A stretch of DNA of 63,884 bases, the filler included, from an uncultured Acidimicrobiia bacterium (lineage in GTDB: Bacteria; Actinomycetota; Acidimicrobiia; Spongiisociales; JAOTWH01), in the NCBI GenBank assembly GCA_964347285.1. It is 3 parts of 3 records of this genome, joined end to end, with 100 filler letters (N's around TTAATTAATTAA, not from the genome) between each part and the next. Parts side by side here need not be neighbours in the genome. Positions count along the whole stretch, not along the records: positions 27,545 to 54,896 come from CAYFYE010000023.1; 2 more parts are not named here. One strand, written 5' to 3'. The stretch's first letter is position 1; the number at the start of each line of letters is the position of its first letter. Positions 35,401-41,400 of this stretch are shown here, piece by piece. Position numbers: made by a program.

Positions 35401-38400
35401 CTTCGCACTCGCCCTGGACCGGGTCTACACGTTCGGTCCCACGTTTCGAGCCGAGAACTCCAACACCCGCCGCCACCTGGCCGAGTTCTGGATGATCGAA
35501 CCGGAGATGGCCTTCGCCGACCTGAACGACAATGCCGACCTGGCCGAGGACTACGTGAGGTACCTGGCCCGGTCGGTCCTGGACAACTGCGGCCCCGATC
35601 TCGAATTCTTCCACCGACTAGACGAAGGGCTCCTCGACACCCTCGCCTCCGTGGCCGATACCGAGTTCGAGCGCATCACCTACACCGAGGCGATCGACGT
35701 GCTCGCTCGGGCCGACGAAGCGTTCGAATACCCGGTTGCCTGGGGAGCCGATCTCCAGTCGGAGCACGAGCGCTACCTCACGGAGCGAGCGCTAGGGAAG
35801 CCCACGATCGTCACCGACTTCCCGTTCGACTTCAAGGCCTTCTACATGCGCCGCAACGACGACGGCAGGACCGTGGCCGCCATGGACGTGCTTGTGCCGC
35901 GGGTCGGCGAGATCGTGGGCGGCAGCCAACGTGAAGAGCGGCTCGACGTGCTGGTCGACAGCATGGCCCGCAAGGGCCTGGACCAGGACCATTATTGGTG
36001 GTATCTGGATCTACGGCGCTTCGGCAGCGTCCCCCACTCCGGCTTCGGGCTCGGTCTGGAACGAGTCGTCCAGTTCTGCACCGGGATGCAGAACATCCGC
36101 GAAGTCATCCCATTTCCCCGCTCGCCACGCAGTGCCGAGTTCTGACGCCGGGCTCCTCGCCGTATTGAGAATCTAGACGGCCGCCCGACGCCTGCGGTGA
36201 AGCTCGAGCAAGGGTTTGTAGAGGCCGTAATGCTTCATGCGGGACAGCGTCAGGTTCCGGTAGTTGAAATCGCCGCTTTGCGTTTGCAAGAACTCTGCCA
36301 CGTCTGCCTCCAGTGAGGCACCGTATTCTCGCCGATAACCTTCCAACAACTCCTGCTTCACATAGTCGTAGAGCTGGAGGTCGGCGGCGTGGGCTTCGGC
36401 GATCATTTCCCGCGTCCTCTCCGTCGAGAGCAGGCGCTCCTTGATGGCATTGGAGGAAGCGACGTTGACTCGTTTGTAGGAGATGTTCAGCTCGTTGAAC
36501 CGGAGTCTCTTCAGCAACACCATCGATTCATCGAAATGCTCGGCCAGGCCCACGAACATGTTTCTCTTCTCGATGATGCGGATCGCTTCGTTCACATCAT
36601 CAACGCCGGCAATCTGCTTCGTCGCCGGATTACGCGTCCAATCCTGCTGGATCCAGTCTTCGAAAGCGATCTTCTTCCCCGATACTTCCTTCTTGTACTG
36701 ATAATGCGAAGCCGATGACTTGACGGGATCGCGGATCATCGTGAAATAGTCGAACCGGTCGCCATCGTCCCCGAGGTCGACGTAGCCGGTGACACGATGC
36801 CCGGCAATGCTCCTCAGATTCGGATACAGCTTGCGCAGGCGCTCCAGATCTTGGATCGAGAAGGGCGGCCCGGTCCACCGGGCGTGCCAGGGCTCCACCT
36901 GACAGTGTCGCAGACCATAGGTACTACGAAGGATATAGGTCACGGTCGTGCCACCCGACTTACTCAGATGAACAAATACACGCATGAGCCACCTCGTGCC
37001 ATTGGCGGATAGACCGACCTAATCGAACTCTTCAAATACTTGTTCGCCTCCGCTGACCGCACCGAGTATCGCCTCTGCGACTTCCGGCCGCATGAACCAC
37101 TCGGGAGGTGTTTCGCCCCGTAGGAACATGGCCCTTGCTTCGGTGCCGCTCAGCAAGTAGCGCCTATCTCCGTCCGGCTCGGACTCGCCATTCACCTCCA
37201 CATAGCCGTCCAGTTGTTGCGAATAGACGACTTCCCTGAACTTGACGATTGTCATCCCCAGGTCGGCAAAGGCGTCGAACAGCTCATGCGAGGCATAGGG
37301 ATCGTAGAAGCTTCCCACACCGGTGTGATCGCGACCAACAATGAAATGACTACAGCCAAAGTTCTTTCGACACAGGGCCGTGAAGAGAGCCTCTCGAGGT
37401 CCGGCATATCGCGAGAACGTGGCAAATGCGGCGCAGACCACCGTATCCTTCGGGTAATAGCGGTCCATCATCAACTCGTAGCTCTTGATGATGTATTTGG
37501 GCTTGAAGTCTCCCGGCTTCTTTCGACCGACCACCGGTTGCACCAGAATGCCGTCACAATGCGTTTCTTCCATTGCCCGCAGCTGCATGAACTCGTGACC
37601 TCTGTGGATGACATTCCGAGTGTGGAAGCCCAGGACCCTCGCCCAGCCGCGTTCGTCGAAGAGTTTGCGTACCTGTTTCGGCGTCAGCTCGTACGCTCTG
37701 GTTTCTGATTGCCTCCCCTTGACCAGGTCTATTCGGCCGGCCAGCAAAACCTCCCCGGCGGCTTGGATCGTCCTGACCCCAGGATGGTCACGATCGCTCG
37801 TGCCGTACAGCCGCCGGGCTGTGTCCTCTCGGTCGAACTCGAACTTCTCATCCAAGCGAAGAAGAGCCATGACTTCGCTGCGATCATCGGTCAAGCCAAC
37901 GACCTGGCCGATCGACAAGCTATCTGCCGTGTCCTTTGCGACATCTAGGGTGATCGGAAGCGGCCACACGGTACCGTCGGCCAACCGCATGTCCGACAAG
38001 ACCGAGCGGAAGTCCTCCGCGCCCATGAAGCCTTCCAATGGGCTGTAGGTTCCGACTGCTATTTGCTCTACTTCCATCTGCTTGTTCGGATCGAGCCTGA
38101 CCTTGGGCAATGCGGCCAGGAAGTCTTTGTCGGGCACCTCGCTGAGAACGCGGTTCACCAAGGATCCTCCGTGGGGCGGTATGAGGGACCCCGTGCCGTT
38201 CTGCAGCAGGTAGGGTGAACGCTCGAGGACCTGAACAAACCCCGGGTAGCCGCGATCGTGGCGACTCTCGCTCATGACTGCCTCCGCGTGGAGTATCAGC
38301 CTGTTCAGCATGTTGATGCACTCCATGGGATGTCTGCCGATGGCCGTTTCCGCCGCCAAGGTGAGGCCCTGCGCTCCATCGAGGATTGTGTTCACGACGT

Positions 38401-41400
38401 CCTGGACTTCGGCTCGGGTCGGCTTCCGATTCTCGATCATCGTTTCGAGCAGGTTCGTGGCGACGAAGACCCCGGTATCGTGTTGACGGGCCTTGGAGAT
38501 GATCACCTTTTGGGTGAACGGTATCTTCTCTATCGGGATCTCTTTGCTGAGATCTCCCCGATCGATCAATACGAGATCTGATTTCTCGATGATTTCGTCG
38601 ATGTTCTCCAGCGCATCGACCGACTCGACCTTCGAAATGATCTTCATCTTGCCTTGTGTGGCCCTTCTCGCCTCATCGATTGAGGCTCCGGACCGCACAA
38701 ATGAGACCGCAATGTGCTCTATCCCGGCTTCCAAACCGAGCTCGATCGACTGATAGTCCTTCGATGACAAAGGTGGGAGGTCCAGCTTCTTCGCGAAGAC
38801 GGGATCCACGACGACGGCCTTGTTTCTCCCGACGTAGCCCCCAAAGATGGCCCTGGCCGTGACATAACCCGCTGATGCTGTGGATACATCCATGACTCGC
38901 AAAATCAGCGTGTCGAAGTCGACGTGGATCAAATCACCCGAGGACAATTGGTTGATTACGAAGCCCGGCCGGAGATGAATGTTGCGAGCGTCGCCGACTA
39001 TCTCGTCCGAACAAAGCCTGACATCATCGTTCTCGGCAAAATAGACAATCTCATTCTCCAGATCTCCGGTCCTGACCTGGGATCCTTCGGTGTCGAGGAT
39101 GAAAGGTATGCCAACGCTCTGGGCCATTCCGATGCAGCGTTCCAGGTACTCGAGACTGGAGTGGGACATGTTCACCCTGACGAAGTCGACGCCCCGGTCT
39201 TTCATCTTCGTCAGATAGGTCTCGGTGTGCGAGGCCGGCCCGAGGGTGACGATGATCTTCGTTCTTCTTTGGTCCACGGCTCTCTCTGCACCGAGGGGTC
39301 GCCGGGCTGGGTGATGCAGCCAGAACCTGGTGGCTCGGCCCCACGGCATATCGGCGGTCTGCTTCGTGGGCGAACCATGAGCTCCCTGGCCTTGCTCCGC
39401 CCGGTGGAAAGGATACCACTTTAAGTGGTTAGGGTGACCCAGCGAGGCCGAGAGGACCACCCCCCGCGTTCGTGGATAGCCTGCATGAGATGCGCGCCCT
39501 CAGCGCGAGTCGACGTCTGACCGATGACCGGGCGCCCCTCAGTTACTCCACAGGTTCGAAGGGGTCGCCCGTGGAGGCCGATCTGCGCCCCCCTCGCCCC
39601 CCCGAAGAGAGGGAGCGCCCTTCGGAAGCAGCGACGGTCGCCTAACCGAAGAACTCGTCGACGGCTCGCTGGTCTTCGTCCACGACCCAGAGCTCAGTGA
39701 TCTTGTCGCCACTCAAGTGATATACCACGACCCGGTTCGAGCTCAGGCTCTTTCCGCCCCGCTCGGCGTGCATGATGCTGAGCACCACCGCATGGTCGTC
39801 GCTGGCCAGCAAGTCGTGCTCTTCGATGCGCATCGAATCGACCATCCCGGTCGCCTGGGCCAGGTACCCGGCGAACTCCGCCTTGCTCCCATAGACACCG
39901 CTCGTGGGACTGTGACCACCAATGTGGGCAACCAGATCGTCGGCGTAGAAGGCGGTCGCTCCCTCGAAGTCACCCGCCGTCATCCGATTCAGATACTCTC
40001 GCATCACCTCGAGCGTCCCCGACATCAGTCCACCCTCCTCTCGTGTGGCCGGAACCCCGCCGAGGCTACTCGTCCCGACCCCTCGGGCGCCGACAGGCAT
40101 CAACCGCAGAAAACGCCGACCAGTTCCACGAGGATCCGCCGGCACGTCTCGACCGTCTGCAGATCCACCCACTCCCGACGGCTGTGGAGGCCGTCGCCGC
40201 CCGGCCCGAAGACGACCGCCGGTATTCCCGCCTCGGTGAGGAGGGCGGCATCCGTCCAGAACGGCGCTCCGCCGATCGGCGGAGCCCGACCCAAGACGTT
40301 TCTGGCAGCGGCCGCCAGTGCGACCACGATCGGCTCGTCGGCCGAGAGCCGCAACGGCGCCCGGTACAGCGAGGCGGTGTGCTCGACGGTGGCGGGCGGC
40401 TGCACCAGCGCCGCCAACCGGGCCAGGTCCGCTTGCCAGTCTTTGGGCTCCTCCCCCGGAACGATGCGCCGCTCCAGATGTATGACGCACTCCCCCGGAT
40501 ACGACGAGATCTCCTGGCCACCACTGATCAACGAGGCGTGGACGGCACCATGACCCACCACTGGGTCGGACGCCCTCTGCTGCAACTCGGCGTGGAGATC
40601 GGAGATCCCCCTCAAGACGGGCCCGGCGTGGGCGATGGCGTCGACGCCGACGTCGGCGTTCGAGCCGTGGGCGGCAACGCCGTGGACGGTGAGTTCGCCC
40701 CAGGCAAACCCGCGATGGGCGACGGCGATCTCGAGGTTGGTCGGCTCGACCACCACTGCGGCGTCGGCCCTCCACCCGGCGACGACCGCCTCTGTCCCCT
40801 TGCTCCCGGCCTCCTCGTCGATCACGCCGGTGAAGATCACATCACCGGGAAGATCCATCTCGGCGGCGGCGACGACGGCTTCCATCGCAGCTACGACGCC
40901 GGCCTTAGTGTCGAGCGAGCCCCGCCCGTAAAGGCGATCACCGACCACGGACGGGGTGAAGGGATCGGGGTATCCGTCGACTCCCACGGTGTCGAAGTGG
41001 GCGTTGAGCATCAAGCTGCGGCCGCCGCCCGAGCCGTGGGCGACGGCGACGACGTTGGGGCGGGTCGGCTCCACCTCTTCAATCGAGACCTCGAGTCCCG
41101 CGCCCCCCAGCCAACCGGCGACGGCGTCCGCCACCGCTCCCTCCCCTGCCCCGGCCCCGAGATCGGGGTTGGTGGAGTCGATGGCTACCAGTTCACGGAG
41201 CATGGACGGACCGTCGAGCACGGGCCCAGGGTATCCGGAGAGACACAGCCGGCACCCCGCCGGCGGAGGGCAGGACGCTGCTGTCCCCTACCGCCGGCCC
41301 ACCCCCGAGAACCGGGGCATCCCCACATCGGCACGGCCCGTTGGCGGGGTCGGGGTTTACGTTCGGCGGATCCGTACACTGCACGGCGACCACCACACCA

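What a model noticed while it worked through the whole genome (the two positions that open the first line are those of the whole stretch)
36173..39277. Low-GC sulfation cassette: pyruvate kinase-ATP sulfurylase fusion plus sulfotransferase
g00973 (752 aa) fuses a pyruvate-kinase catalytic barrel (aa 4-321, no PK C-terminal regulatory domain) to a PUA-ATP sulfurylase (aa 366-738). It is followed in the same direction, 33 bp on, by g00972, a Gal-3-O-sulfotransferase-family enzyme. The pair is the lowest-GC stretch of the genome and its nearest relatives are in Chloroflexota, so it is a horizontally acquired cassette. I propose that the PK module regenerates ATP from PEP at the sulfate-activating enzyme, to drive PAPS supply for sulfation of a glycan.
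Evidence so far: Pfam PK 1e-70, PUA_2 1e-46 and ATP-sulfurylase 2e-77 on one ORF. PK catalytic motifs are kept when laid beside the genome's housekeeping PK g00674 (RxNxSH, DTxG, SKvE, RGDL, ETA; call 70). GC is 0.572 and 0.567 against a genome mean of 0.672, sd 0.028; only 8 genes >100 aa lie below 0.60, another being the sulfotransferase g02463. 119 of 120 listed homologues are fusions of 701-788 aa, 66-73% id; the named ones are mostly Anaerolineae/Ardenticatenaceae. In 200 other genomes of the own order a full-length match was listed in 4 (one at 70%, three at 42-43% id); the other listed matches cover only the PK half or only the sulfurylase half, and 142 weaker matches were not listed. 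Gal-3-0_sulfotr: [...]
(Added by a program. Inside this text positions count along the whole contig: they may not be those of the stretch shown here. "Call 12" and the like, gene names such as g00115 and contig names such as C1 are that model's own, and its searches are not shown. The text may have been shortened before it was handed on; [...] marks where a part breaks off. The agent that wrote the report below was given it as the finding of a first reader that could run no searches.)

Follow-up and report, generated by a model that had tools for sequence, protein, structure and literature searches.

The report
Pyruvate-kinase-fused ATP sulfurylase with sulfotransferase
An uncultured Acidimicrobiia bacterium has picked up from elsewhere a two-gene kit for attaching sulfate to a sugar chain, and the kit's sulfate-activating enzyme is fused to a pyruvate kinase that probably recharges ATP from phosphoenolpyruvate, an enzyme design on which I found no published study.

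Summary
On the minus strand, 37019-39277 encodes a 752-aa protein: pyruvate-kinase (PK) barrel without the PK C-terminal domain, then PUA-like domain, then ATP sulfurylase. A 270-aa sulfotransferase gene follows 33 bp downstream.

The pair lies in the lowest-GC 3 kb of the genome (0.573 against a mean of 0.675). A full-length fusion was listed in 4 of 200 other genomes of the order. In a tree the protein nests among Chloroflexota-labelled sequences, so horizontal acquisition is supported.

The PK half looks active: its catalytic residues are invariant across 29 relatives (44-73% identity), and it is as conserved as the sulfurylase half.

In 86 non-redundant related loci, APS kinase is fused to the protein in 6, adjacent in 26, and elsewhere in the flank in 5. 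Sulfotransferases and polysaccharide genes are common neighbours. The PK therefore does not replace APS kinase. It most likely turns the ADP made by APS kinase back into ATP using PEP, as chemists do when making PAPS in vitro. This is inferred; there is no assay.

New here: the cassette has partners elsewhere in the genome. Homologues of four more donor-cluster gene types lie on two other contigs.

This scan had already noted the same fusion family in other genomes (14 distinct notes listed). Three literature searches found no paper on it.

The parts
37019..39277 (-). PK-ATP sulfurylase fusion gene, 752 aa, GTG start at 39277
   Evidence: ORF. Three Pfam domains on one frame. The start agrees with the consensus of 29 relatives. 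NCBIfam sulfate adenylyltransferase scores are above cut-off: NF003166 418 bits against 387, TIGR00339 363 against 323. AlphaFold model has pLDDT 84.8 and pTM 0.81.
38315..39268 (-). Pyruvate-kinase A+B (barrel and lid) module, aa 4-321; no C-terminal regulatory domain
   Evidence: Pfam PK 8e-70 over the whole profile. Best solved relatives are Geobacillus PK 2e28 (1.2e-52) and E. coli PykF. Invariant in 29 relatives: R34 N36 S38 H39, D62 T63 G65 R69, K153, K216 E218, D239-L243, T274, P286-E290, E310. NCBIfam pyruvate kinase TIGR01064 scores 292.6 bits, below its cut-off of 306.4, because only positions 1-341 of 476 are matched.
38183..38314 (-). Linker, aa 322-365: two helices then a disordered stretch
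   Evidence: Lowest conservation of the protein (mean 0.44 against 0.63-0.70 for the domains). pLDDT is below 50 at aa 338-343 and 359-368.
37718..38182 (-). PUA-like N-terminal domain of ATP sulfurylase, aa 366-520
   Evidence: Pfam PUA_2 7.4e-46. Aligns with 8a8d from residue 5.
37064..37696 (-). ATP sulfurylase catalytic domain, aa 528-738
   Evidence: Pfam 9.4e-77. Best solved relative is Methanothermococcus thermolithotrophicus ATP sulfurylase 8a8d, 1e-92; Foldseek TM-score on the target 0.92. Invariant in 29 relatives: F551 H552 T553 N555 H558 H561, H651 T652.
36986..37018 (-). 33-nt spacer with Shine-Dalgarno-like GAGGTG (36990-36995), 4 nt before the sulfotransferase ATG
   Evidence: Read directly from the sequence. 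No terminator-like site between the two genes.
36173..36985 (-). Sulfotransferase, 270 aa, of a tightly sized (about 271 aa) uncharacterised family
   Evidence: Pfam Gal-3-0_sulfotr 33.1 bits, cut-off 27. 418 homologues; the 119 listed besides the window's own protein are 59-71% identical, and some also hit Sulfotransfer_2. Invariant K9 G12 T14 and R85 P87 S93. Homologues lie near the fusion in L005, L006, L012, L086 and others.
39278..39641 (-). Upstream intergenic region, presumed promoter region of the pair
   Evidence: It lies between the SnoaL-like gene and the GTG start. No sigma-70-like promoter and no Rfam family were found, so this part is inferred only.

Best explanation
The two genes are a horizontally acquired sulfation cassette.

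The 752-aa protein is a working ATP sulfurylase (ATP + sulfate -> APS + PPi) with a working, regulator-less pyruvate kinase on its N-terminus. APS kinase, encoded elsewhere in this genome as a normal Sat-CysC gene on contig C169, turns APS into PAPS and releases ADP. The PK module uses PEP to turn that ADP back into ATP. PAPS synthesis then costs one ATP plus one PEP instead of two ATP, and ADP is kept low. ADP traps APS kinase in a dead-end enzyme-ADP-APS complex.

The 270-aa sulfotransferase then moves the sulfate from PAPS onto an acceptor. The acceptor is most likely a Wzy-type surface polysaccharide, built by donor-type genes that lie on two other contigs.

Shown: gene structure, domain content, conservation of catalytic residues, gene neighbourhoods, foreign composition and phylogeny. 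Inferred: PK activity, the source of the ADP, and the acceptor.
For: Architecture: three domains on one frame. All 120 listed homologues have the same three domains. The folds are confirmed.

PK half under selection as an enzyme:
- In 29 relatives at 44-73% identity the residues that line up with E. coli PykF R32/N34/S36/H37, D66/T67/R73 and the SK.E, RGDL, AT..L..M, PTRAE and E.TA motifs are invariant.
- Mean column conservation is 0.70 for PK against 0.68 for the sulfurylase domain.

Link to PAPS synthesis in 86 non-redundant related loci (95% clusters of 91 loci):
- APS kinase is fused C-terminally in 6, adjacent (500 bp or less, same strand) in 26, elsewhere in the flank in 5, and not found in 49. 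Of those 49, 34 have under 3 kb of flank on one side.
- All 31 separate candidates were confirmed by Pfam (29, 2).
- Among the 33 loci with at least 3 kb on both sides, 18 have APS kinase.
- Of those 33, 23 have a sulfotransferase by my own HMMs, 20 of them confirmed by Pfam (or both).

Neighbours in 11 genome loci are glycosyltransferases, Wzx, Wzy, Wzz, priming transferases and sugar-modifying enzymes.

Own genome: a separate full PK lies on C13 and a Sat-APS kinase on C169 at native GC 0.667.

In vitro analogue: with human PAPSS1, the PAPS peak was 'practically missing' without a PK/PEP ATP-regeneration system. [quoted passage not shown]

Transfer:
- Lowest-GC window of 4101.
- Full-length fusion listed in 4 of 200 other genomes of the order, and in none of 7 of the same family.
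- Tree placement.
- Relatives' fusion genes have GC 0.40-0.52, so the window's 0.572 is intermediate.
Against: - No assay of any member was found.
- The family differs from canonical PKs at several otherwise conserved positions, all invariant within the family: E64 for Lys, Q67 for Glu, N275 for Gln, A308-A309 for Ser-Gly. I313 for Lys is only nearly invariant (I in at least 90% of the 29 rows). Activity or nucleotide preference could differ.
- The sulfurylase has His552 where solved enzymes have the Gln of the QxRN motif.
- APS kinase is not in this cassette. It was also not found in the flanks of 15 of the 33 well-flanked related loci, including the closest ones (L005, L006, L007, L012, L106, L110).
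- The cell already has a housekeeping PK, so the need for a dedicated one is not obvious.
- The sulfotransferase's fold could not be checked: the model has pLDDT 46 and a profile search found no solved relative.
- No expression data.
Confidence: 0.65

Rival explanations
1. The PK half is a catalytically silent regulatory or scaffolding domain, as the APS-kinase-like domain of fungal ATP sulfurylase is. It might, for example, sense PEP or ADP.
For: The allosteric C domain is gone. Several canonical PK positions are replaced family-wide. Patron et al. state that the fungal APS-kinase domain is regulatory, which is a precedent for a recruited kinase fold (PMC2275785, passages read).
Against: The residues that line up with the catalytic Lys, both Mg ligands, the K+ site and the PEP/ADP-binding Arg and Lys residues of solved PKs are invariant across 29 relatives down to 44% identity. 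The half is as conserved as the sulfurylase. A sensor would not need all of them.
Confidence: 0.1
2. The PK half is active but works on another nucleotide than ADP. One example is 3'-phospho-ADP derived from the sulfotransferase by-product PAP, so that the fusion regenerates PAPS without APS kinase.
For: The family-specific substitutions lie near the cation and nucleotide sites. The closest relatives lack APS kinase nearby but always carry an unexplained protein of about 525 aa with a weak P-loop-kinase signal beside the fusion. The sulfurylase motif is altered, His552 and Thr652.
Against: APS kinase is fused or adjacent in 32 of 86 loci, and some loci encode APS kinase fused to a CysQ-like PAP phosphatase (L116, L130). 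That fits the ordinary PAPS cycle. There is no direct evidence for the alternative substrate.
Confidence: 0.06
3. The fusion has no mechanistic coupling. It is a spare glycolytic PK that happens to be translated with a sulfurylase for co-regulation.
For: PK and ATP sulfurylase share no intermediate directly. The ADP link runs through a third enzyme. Short PK-only proteins related to this half exist, 336-350 aa at 40-45% identity, on contigs up to 191 kb.
Against: The fusion persists across many labelled phyla of bacteria and archaea with both halves equally conserved. It recurs as a triple fusion with APS kinase in 6 of 86 loci. The model's pTM of 0.81 for the whole chain suggests a fixed arrangement of the two modules.
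Confidence: 0.08
4. The enzyme runs towards ATP (APS + PPi -> ATP + sulfate), as in sulfur oxidation or APS salvage, and has nothing to do with sulfation.
For: ATP sulfurylase is reversible. Dissimilatory enzymes of the same family exist (abstract of PMC3779200 as listed).
Against: No APS reductase or sulfur-oxidation genes were seen among the 123 neighbouring ORFs scanned in the 11 genome loci, nor in this contig; the 80 metagenome loci were screened only for APS kinase and sulfotransferases. Sulfotransferases, APS kinase and glycan genes dominate instead. A PK that makes still more ATP would serve no purpose in that direction.
Confidence: 0.03
5. Artefact: a chimeric contig or a read-through of two genes.
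For: The genome is a metagenome bin of 187 contigs. The composition changes sharply at the island.
Against: The same single-frame architecture is seen in 119 other clusters and 91 loci. Independent Logan contigs bridge both junctions; depth is 6.5 in the island and about 2-14 on the flanks. High-GC genes of the same contig flank the island on both sides.
Confidence: 0.01

Closest known systems
Bifunctional ATP sulfurylase-APS kinase / PAPS synthase (Aquifex aeolicus Sat-CysC, PDB 2gks; human PAPSS1)
   Same: The sulfurylase half is homologous (2gks 4.2e-77; Foldseek rank 5). A helper enzyme of the same pathway is fused to the sulfurylase. The role is PAPS supply.
   Different: The partner here is a pyruvate kinase at the N-terminus, not APS kinase. 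The window protein has no APS kinase domain, and NCBIfam NF004040 scores 306 bits, below its cut-off of 669. In 6 of 86 relatives both partners are present on one chain.
ATP sulfurylase fused to inorganic pyrophosphatase (stramenopiles, haptophytes) or to APS reductase (Heterocapsa); Patron et al. 2008, PMC2275785
   Same: The logic is the same: an enzyme that pulls an unfavourable sulfate activation forward is fused on (passages read).
   Different: Those fusions remove PPi or APS. This one would remove ADP and restore ATP. The paper does not mention pyruvate kinase (0 occurrences). Those are eukaryotic; this family is prokaryotic.
Laboratory PAPS-generating cascades with PK/PEP ATP regeneration (PMC9885120)
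   Same: The same three activities are combined (ATP sulfurylase, APS kinase, pyruvate kinase), and the stated reason is removal of ADP, which forms the dead-end complex on APS kinase.
   Different: That set-up is an engineered mixture of separate commercial or recombinant enzymes. Here the combination is encoded by nature in one gene or operon.
Second copies of cysD/cysN/cysC with sulfotransferases inside sulfated capsule clusters of marine bacteria (Vibrio sp. KMM 8419, PMC11641403)
   Same: Dedicated PAPS-synthesis genes plus sulfotransferases inside a polysaccharide cluster, which the authors call a hallmark of sulfated polysaccharide synthesis (passages read).
   Different: Those use the GTPase-coupled CysDN sulfurylase. 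This family uses a Sat-type sulfurylase coupled to PK. In this genome the cluster is broken into at least three places.
Canonical pyruvate kinases (E. coli PykF 1pky/4yng, Geobacillus 2e28)
   Same: A and B domains and the catalytic residues.
   Different: No C-terminal effector domain. About 33-37% identity only. There are family-specific replacements at five conserved positions.

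Membership tests
ATP sulfurylase, Sat type (Pfam PF01747 + PF14306; NCBIfam TIGR00339/NF003166) | PUA-like domain followed by the catalytic domain, scoring above the curated cut-offs | tested here: met
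   Pfam 257.6 and 156.1 bits. NF003166 scores 418.2 against 387; TIGR00339 scores 363.3 against 322.95.
ATP sulfurylase, Sat type (Pfam PF01747 + PF14306; NCBIfam TIGR00339/NF003166) | Nucleotide-binding motif (QxRNxxHxxH in solved enzymes) and the GRDHxG loop; motif names are recalled | tested here: met
   R554(nearly)-N555, H558, H561, D650(nearly)-H651 are kept in 29 relatives. The Gln is His552 and the Ala is Thr652, both invariant in the family.
ATP sulfurylase, Sat type (Pfam PF01747 + PF14306; NCBIfam TIGR00339/NF003166) | Fold | tested here: met
   Foldseek against 8a8d_A: E 6.7e-39, TM-score on the target 0.92, rmsd 2.4.
ATP sulfurylase, Sat type (Pfam PF01747 + PF14306; NCBIfam TIGR00339/NF003166) | Formation of APS from ATP and sulfate | not testable with these tools
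   Needs an enzyme assay.
Pyruvate kinase (Pfam PF00224; NCBIfam TIGR01064) | A-domain barrel with B-domain lid | tested here: met
   Pfam covers profile positions 2-328 of 328. Aligned to solved PKs over residues 3-336. PK chains are matched by the model.
Pyruvate kinase (Pfam PF00224; NCBIfam TIGR01064) | Catalytic Lys, Mg ligands (Glu, Asp), K+ site (Asn, Ser, Asp, Thr), PEP/ADP-binding Arg and Lys; the roles of these residues are recalled | tested here: met
   K216, E218, D242, N36, S38, D62, T63, R34, R69 and K153 line up with the PykF motifs. They are invariant in 29 relatives.
Pyruvate kinase (Pfam PF00224; NCBIfam TIGR01064) | C-terminal alpha/beta (effector) domain | tested here: not met
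   No PK_C in the window protein or in any of 120 listed relatives. TIGR01064 scores 292.6 bits, below 306.4, with only positions 1-341 of 476 matched.
Pyruvate kinase (Pfam PF00224; NCBIfam TIGR01064) | PEP + ADP -> pyruvate + ATP | not testable with these tools
   Needs an enzyme assay.
Bifunctional PAPS synthase (Sat-APS kinase) | APS kinase domain on the same chain | tested here: not met
   No PF01583 in the window protein. It is present in 6 of 86 related loci as a triple fusion of about 930-940 aa. The genome's own APS kinase is on C169.
PAPS-dependent carbohydrate sulfotransferase (Pfam Gal-3-0_sulfotr / Sulfotransfer_2) | Family profile above the gathering score | tested here: met
   33.1 bits against 27, but only aa 130-217 are matched. 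Relatives carry PF06990 and some carry PF03567. No NCBIfam match.
PAPS-dependent carbohydrate sulfotransferase (Pfam Gal-3-0_sulfotr / Sulfotransfer_2) | 5'-phosphosulfate-binding loop (K-x-x-G-T-T type) and 3'-phosphate-binding motif (R-x-P ... S); motif definitions are recalled, not from a call | tested here: inconclusive
   K9, G12, T14 and R85, P87, S93 are invariant in 32 family members and fit the recalled patterns. No structure supports this.
PAPS-dependent carbohydrate sulfotransferase (Pfam Gal-3-0_sulfotr / Sulfotransfer_2) | Sulfotransferase fold | tested here: inconclusive
   The AlphaFold model is poor (pLDDT 46.1). A profile search of solved structures gave 0 hits at E up to 1.
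Horizontally acquired genomic island | Composition unlike the host's | tested here: met
   Lowest of 4101 3-kb windows, about 6 sd below the mean.
Horizontally acquired genomic island | Phylogeny at odds with the host's, and patchy distribution | tested here: met
   Tree. Full-length match listed in 4 of 200 other genomes of the order.
Horizontally acquired genomic island | Mobility marks (integrase, tRNA, flanking repeats) or an empty site in a relative | tested here: not met
   No flanking repeat longer than chance matches. No mobility gene among the neighbours. An empty site could not be found, because the nearest genomes share only the M20 peptidase gene.

The most novel reading that the evidence does not exclude
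The PK half is not an ordinary ADP-recycling PK. Its family-wide changes at conserved PK positions (E64, Q67, N275, A308-A309), together with the altered sulfurylase motif (His552, Thr652), adapt the pair to 3'-phosphorylated adenine nucleotides. PAP released by the sulfotransferase would then be rebuilt directly into PAPS, using PEP for the phosphate and sulfate for the sulfuryl group. This would happen without APS kinase and CysQ, at least in the subclade to which this gene belongs. In that subclade no APS kinase is nearby, and an unexplained P-loop-like protein of about 525 aa always is.
Probability: 0.05. Interest if true: 0.9.

Novelty: new variant of a known kind. Interest (0 to 1): 0.6.

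Why it matters
Sulfate activation is energetically uphill. Known solutions are GTP hydrolysis (CysDN), removal of PPi, and removal of APS by APS kinase. A natural fusion that brings in PEP, the highest-energy common phosphate donor, would be a fourth solution. It is the one that chemists adopted on their own for making PAPS.

The family is large: at least 562 matching stretches in one metagenome scan and more than 100 clusters among the best hits. It spans labelled Chloroflexota, Omnitrophota, Planctomycetota, candidate-phyla-radiation bacteria and DPANN-type archaea.

The family also marks gene clusters for sulfated surface glycans, which are little studied in prokaryotes. A compact enzyme that makes APS or PAPS from PEP would be useful for enzymatic sulfation.

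For this genome the finding shows how a foreign polysaccharide-sulfation gene set was taken up and scattered over several sites.

Tried and rejected
- Empty-site test for the insertion. The flanking asparagine-tRNA ligase had no match at E 1e-60 or better in 5 same-family genomes. The M20 peptidase had orthologues (62-64% identity) in two same-family genomes, but none of 13 other window genes matched beside them. The test is uninformative.
- Mobility marks: none.
- Regulatory RNA or promoter upstream: no Rfam match at E up to 1, and 0 promoter-like sites against 1.0 expected.
- Sulfotransferase fold: the AlphaFold model from 32 close relatives was too poor to search (pLDDT 46). A profile search of solved structures found nothing.
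- PK as a replacement for APS kinase (PEP-dependent 3'-phosphorylation of APS): rejected as the general reading, because canonical APS kinase is fused or adjacent in 32 of 86 loci.
- Run X2 covers only parts of the stretch at low depth, and nothing in 35300-36343. That is a gap in cover, not evidence.
- I did not run complex prediction, since the report claims no protein-protein binding.
- Literature: three searches for the natural fusion listed 22, 0 and 14 papers. For one search I saw titles and abstract starts of 15 of the 22. None of those seen was on such a fusion. In the two opened or listed in detail, PK appears in coupled assays. The library misses most subscription journals.

Full report
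**What is there**

The window joins several contigs of one metagenome-assembled genome (G000: 2.63 Mb, 187 contigs, 90% complete).
- C22 is window 1-27444.
- C23 (27,352 bp) is window 27545-54896.
- Further sequence follows after an N spacer.

The finding lies on C23, on the minus strand. The ORF list gives 37019..39460 and 36173..36985. Relatives are 749-788 aa apart from two shorter ones, and their consensus begins at the same residue. The 61 extra codons up to 39460 have no counterpart.

Pfam finds three domains:
- pyruvate-kinase barrel, aa 4-321, 8e-70, the whole profile;
- PUA_2, aa 366-520;
- ATP-sulfurylase, aa 528-738.
There is no PK C-terminal domain.

The second gene starts 33 nt after the stop of the first, behind a GAGGTG ribosome-binding site. 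It encodes a 270-aa protein with a marginal, partial Gal-3-O-sulfotransferase match (33.1 bits, cut-off 27).

Neighbours on both sides are unrelated, high-GC genes: an asparagine-tRNA ligase (convergent, 27 nt away), a SnoaL-like gene, an M20 peptidase and a thiolase.

**Is it real?**

- All 120 best database clusters have the same three domains on one chain.
- 91 loci from genomes and metagenomes encode it in one frame.
- The AlphaFold model is confident (pLDDT 84.8, pTM 0.81).
- The sulfurylase half superposes on the Methanothermococcus thermolithotrophicus enzyme 8a8d (TM-score 0.92). The PK half matches solved PK chains.
- Contigs built independently from public run X1 cover the whole stretch. 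Depth is a flat 6.5 in the island and about 2-14 on the flanks, lowest (2-4) just before the downstream junction. They bridge both junctions (36071-36242 and 39335-40057). That run may be the source sample, so this is only weak support against a chimera.

**Foreign origin**

- Composition. The island is the lowest-GC 3 kb of the genome: 0.573 against a mean of 0.675 (sd 0.017) over 4101 windows.
- Distribution. In 200 other genomes of the order, a full-length match was listed in four: G189 at 70%, and G171, G087, G108 at 42-43%. None was listed in seven genomes of the same family. 142 weaker matches were not listed. Three of the 200 (G004, G016, G195) are unpublished. They enter this count only as genomes without a listed full-length match.
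- Tree. A quick maximum-likelihood tree of 48 rows puts the window protein with the G189 copy (SH-aLRT 100). That copy is identical to L005, whose record is titled Acidimicrobiia bacterium. The pair sits inside an 18-row clade (support 100). Its other named members are Anaerolineae, Anaerolineales, Ardenticatenaceae and Chloroflexota bins, plus one 'delta proteobacterium' and one Promethearchaeota bin.
- The three other Acidimicrobiia copies sit in the other deep clade, so they are separate acquisitions.
- GC of relatives. In the Chloroflexota-type loci the fusion gene has GC 0.40-0.52. The window's 0.572 looks partly adapted to the host. Together with the 73% best identity, this argues against a very recent transfer.
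- No integrase, tRNA or flanking repeat marks the island.
- An empty site could not be found, because the nearest genomes share no synteny.

**The PK half looks like an enzyme, not a relic**

Laid beside E. coli PykF and Geobacillus PK, the protein keeps these residues:
- R34, N36, S38, H39 (PykF R32, N34, S36, H37);
- D62, T63, R69 (D66, T67, R73);
- the Lys of the lid (K153);
- the SK.E motif (K216, E218), RGDL (D242), AT..L..M (T274), PTRAE, and the Glu of the E-T-A motif (E310).

All are invariant in 29 relatives down to 44% identity. The PK half is as conserved as the sulfurylase half, 0.70 against 0.68 mean column conservation. The roles of these residues (catalytic Lys, Mg and K+ ligands, PEP and ADP contacts) are recalled from the PK literature, not from a call.

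The family also has its own fixed differences from canonical PKs: E64 (Lys), Q67 (Glu), N275 (Gln) and A308-A309 (Ser-Gly). I313 (Lys) is nearly invariant. In the sulfurylase, His552 replaces the Gln of QxRN and Thr652 stands in the GRDH-x-G loop. What these changes do is unknown.

**Context decides the pathway**

In 11 loci from named genomes, 123 neighbouring ORFs were scanned.
- The fusion sits in polysaccharide clusters: GT4 and GT2 glycosyltransferases, priming transferase, Wzx, Wzy, Wzz, aminotransferases and epimerases.
- Sulfotransferases are present in ten of the eleven: nine by Pfam and L005 by tblastn.
- One protein (L010, 930 aa) carries an APS kinase domain after the sulfurylase.

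I then added 80 metagenome loci. I searched all 91 loci with HMMs built from the Pfam-verified examples.

| APS kinase in 86 non-redundant loci | Loci |
|---|---|
| Fused to the protein | 6 |
| Adjacent, 500 bp or less, same strand (20 downstream, 6 upstream) | 26 |
| Elsewhere in the flank | 5 |
| Not found (34 of these have under 3 kb of flank on one side) | 49 |

- Pfam confirmed all 31 separate APS kinase candidates (29, 2).
- Among the 33 loci with at least 3 kb on both sides, 18 have APS kinase.
- Of those 33, 23 have a sulfotransferase by my HMMs, 20 of them confirmed by Pfam.
- Three of the 33 have neither by my HMMs, five if only Pfam-confirmed sulfotransferases count.
- Overall, 39 of 44 sulfotransferase candidates were confirmed by Pfam at E 1e-4 or better.
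- Some loci encode APS kinase fused to a CysQ-like phosphatase (L116, L130). One has a conventional Sat-APS kinase gene directly upstream of the fusion (L107).

So the PK does not stand in for APS kinase. The fusion belongs to the ordinary PAPS route.

**Mechanism proposed**

APS kinase makes one ADP per PAPS. A PK beside it would use PEP to return that ADP to ATP. The net reaction becomes ATP + PEP + sulfate -> PAPS + pyruvate + PPi.

This is what is done in vitro. With human PAPSS1, PAPS was 'practically missing' without a PK/PEP regeneration system. [quoted passage not shown]

Known natural sulfurylase fusions follow the same logic of pulling the reaction forward: APS kinase, pyrophosphatase and APS reductase (PMC2275785, passages read). 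Pyruvate kinase is not mentioned in that paper.

In this genome the APS kinase is supplied by a normal Sat-CysC gene on C169 at native GC 0.667. A full-length housekeeping PK lies on C13.

Loss of the effector domain suggests an unregulated PK; that is an inference.

**Beyond the two genes**

The second-lowest-GC spot of the genome is C66:6146-9103. It encodes a Wzy_C-type protein (418 aa, GC 0.599) and a BNR-repeat protein (575 aa, GC 0.583).
- The BNR protein has homologues (45-49% identity) in seven loci: L006, L012, L106, L107, L111, L134 and L136. It lies directly beside the fusion in six of them and about 1.4 kb away in L111.
- The Wzy_C protein has homologues (55-62% identity) in four of these loci (L006, L012, L106, L107), about 6-7 kb from the fusion.
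- Those seven loci are 7 of the 13 non-redundant loci whose fusion is at least 63% identical to the window's.

Searching the genes of five such loci against the whole genome also found matches on the 6-kb contig C126. These are a conserved protein of about 525 aa (weak nucleotidyltransferase and P-loop signals) and GT4 glycosyltransferases, at 46-54% identity. C126 holds three GT4 genes and that protein.

The donor-type gene set therefore lies on at least three contigs here: fusion, BNR protein, the protein of about 525 aa, the 271-aa sulfotransferase, Wzy_C and GT4. The acceptor is therefore most likely a Wzy-type surface polysaccharide. That is inferred from neighbours, not shown.

Two more sulfotransferases lie on C131 (GC 0.576) and C73.

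**The sulfotransferase**

Its family is large (418 hits) and of nearly fixed length, about 271 aa; the listed members are 59-71% identical to the window's. K9, G12, T14 and R85, P87, S93 are invariant. They fit the recalled PAPS-binding motifs. The fold could not be confirmed.

The arrangement of the fusion followed directly by this sulfotransferase type recurs in two distant members (L137 and L173, gaps of 14-18 bp). Pfam did not confirm those two at E 1e-4 or better.

**Novelty and standing**

- Three full-text searches found no paper on a natural PK-sulfurylase fusion. The library lacks most subscription journals.
- Public annotations call the protein either 'pyruvate kinase' or 'sulfate adenylyltransferase'.
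- This scan has noted the same family before in other genomes, with 14 distinct notes listed across two look-ups, and reached the same reading. Those are unchecked AI notes, not independent evidence.
- I rate it a new variant of a known kind: PAPS-supply genes for sulfated glycans, and sulfurylase fusions with helper enzymes.
- Specific to this window are the transfer into a high-GC actinobacterial lineage, the minimal two-gene form, and the scattered partner genes.

Noticed in passing
window 27445-27544, 52857-52956, 54897-54996, 59448-59547: The window is a chain of contigs and scaffold gaps. C22 ends at 27444. C23 runs from 27545 to 54896 with an internal N gap at 52857-52956. Another contig follows from 54997, with a gap at 59448-59547. 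ORFs that cross these runs are artefacts of the joining.
   Followed up: yes
outside the window: G000 contig C66:6146-9103 (L186:1147-4104): This is the second-lowest-GC spot of the genome. It holds a Wzy_C-type gene and a BNR-repeat gene. Their homologues sit beside or near the PK-sulfurylase fusion in Chloroflexota-type loci, so it is probably a second piece of the same acquired gene set.
   Followed up: partly
outside the window: G000 contig C126 (L188:1-6059): A whole 6-kb contig holds three GT4 glycosyltransferases and a 514-aa protein. These are homologous (46-54%) to genes of the donor-type clusters. GC is about 0.65, closer to the host's.
   Followed up: partly
L012:10324-11898, L006:11571-13139, L106:12250-13863, L107:7804-9387; own copy L188:4417-5958: A conserved protein of about 525 aa lies right next to the fusion or to its BNR neighbour in the closest relatives. 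It has only weak hits, to an uncharacterised nucleotidyltransferase family and to P-loop kinases. Its function is unknown.
   Followed up: partly
window 34754-36145 (+): The flanking gene is an asparagine-tRNA ligase (NCBIfam 641 bits, cut-off 414). It had no match at E 1e-60 or better in five genomes of the same family, so it may itself be an accessory gene.
   Followed up: partly
window 52682-54896 (+): A low-GC (0.594) reading frame with a K319L-like PKD domain, broken by an N gap and by the contig end. PKD-domain proteins of this type also lie near the fusion in L006 and L007.
   Followed up: no
window 56195-61866 (+): Two very large repeat proteins with SpaA-like, DUF7507 and DUF11 domains, probably surface proteins. 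They are interrupted by an N gap.
   Followed up: no
window 36169: One 100-base contig of run X1 (depth 3.4) matches 36169-36242 with two differences. It then continues with 26 unrelated letters just past the sulfotransferase stop. This may be a strain variant with another downstream junction.
   Followed up: no
proteins P0290, P0294, P0299, P0305, P0310 and others: Stand-alone PK-barrel proteins of about 336-350 aa without a C domain lie on contigs up to 191 kb. They are 40-45% identical to the PK half, closer than housekeeping PKs. PK-only proteins at 58-61% identity on contigs of 11-33 kb may be split forms of the fusion.
   Followed up: no
L107:2299-4032; L116:15003-16361; L130:7516-8847; L181:3045-4334: These are variant partners in related loci. 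A Sat-APS kinase gene lies directly upstream of the fusion, with a sulfurylase match that covers only profile positions 2-154 of 212. There are also APS kinase fused to a CysQ-like inositol-phosphatase domain (twice) and APS kinase fused to a methyltransferase.
   Followed up: no
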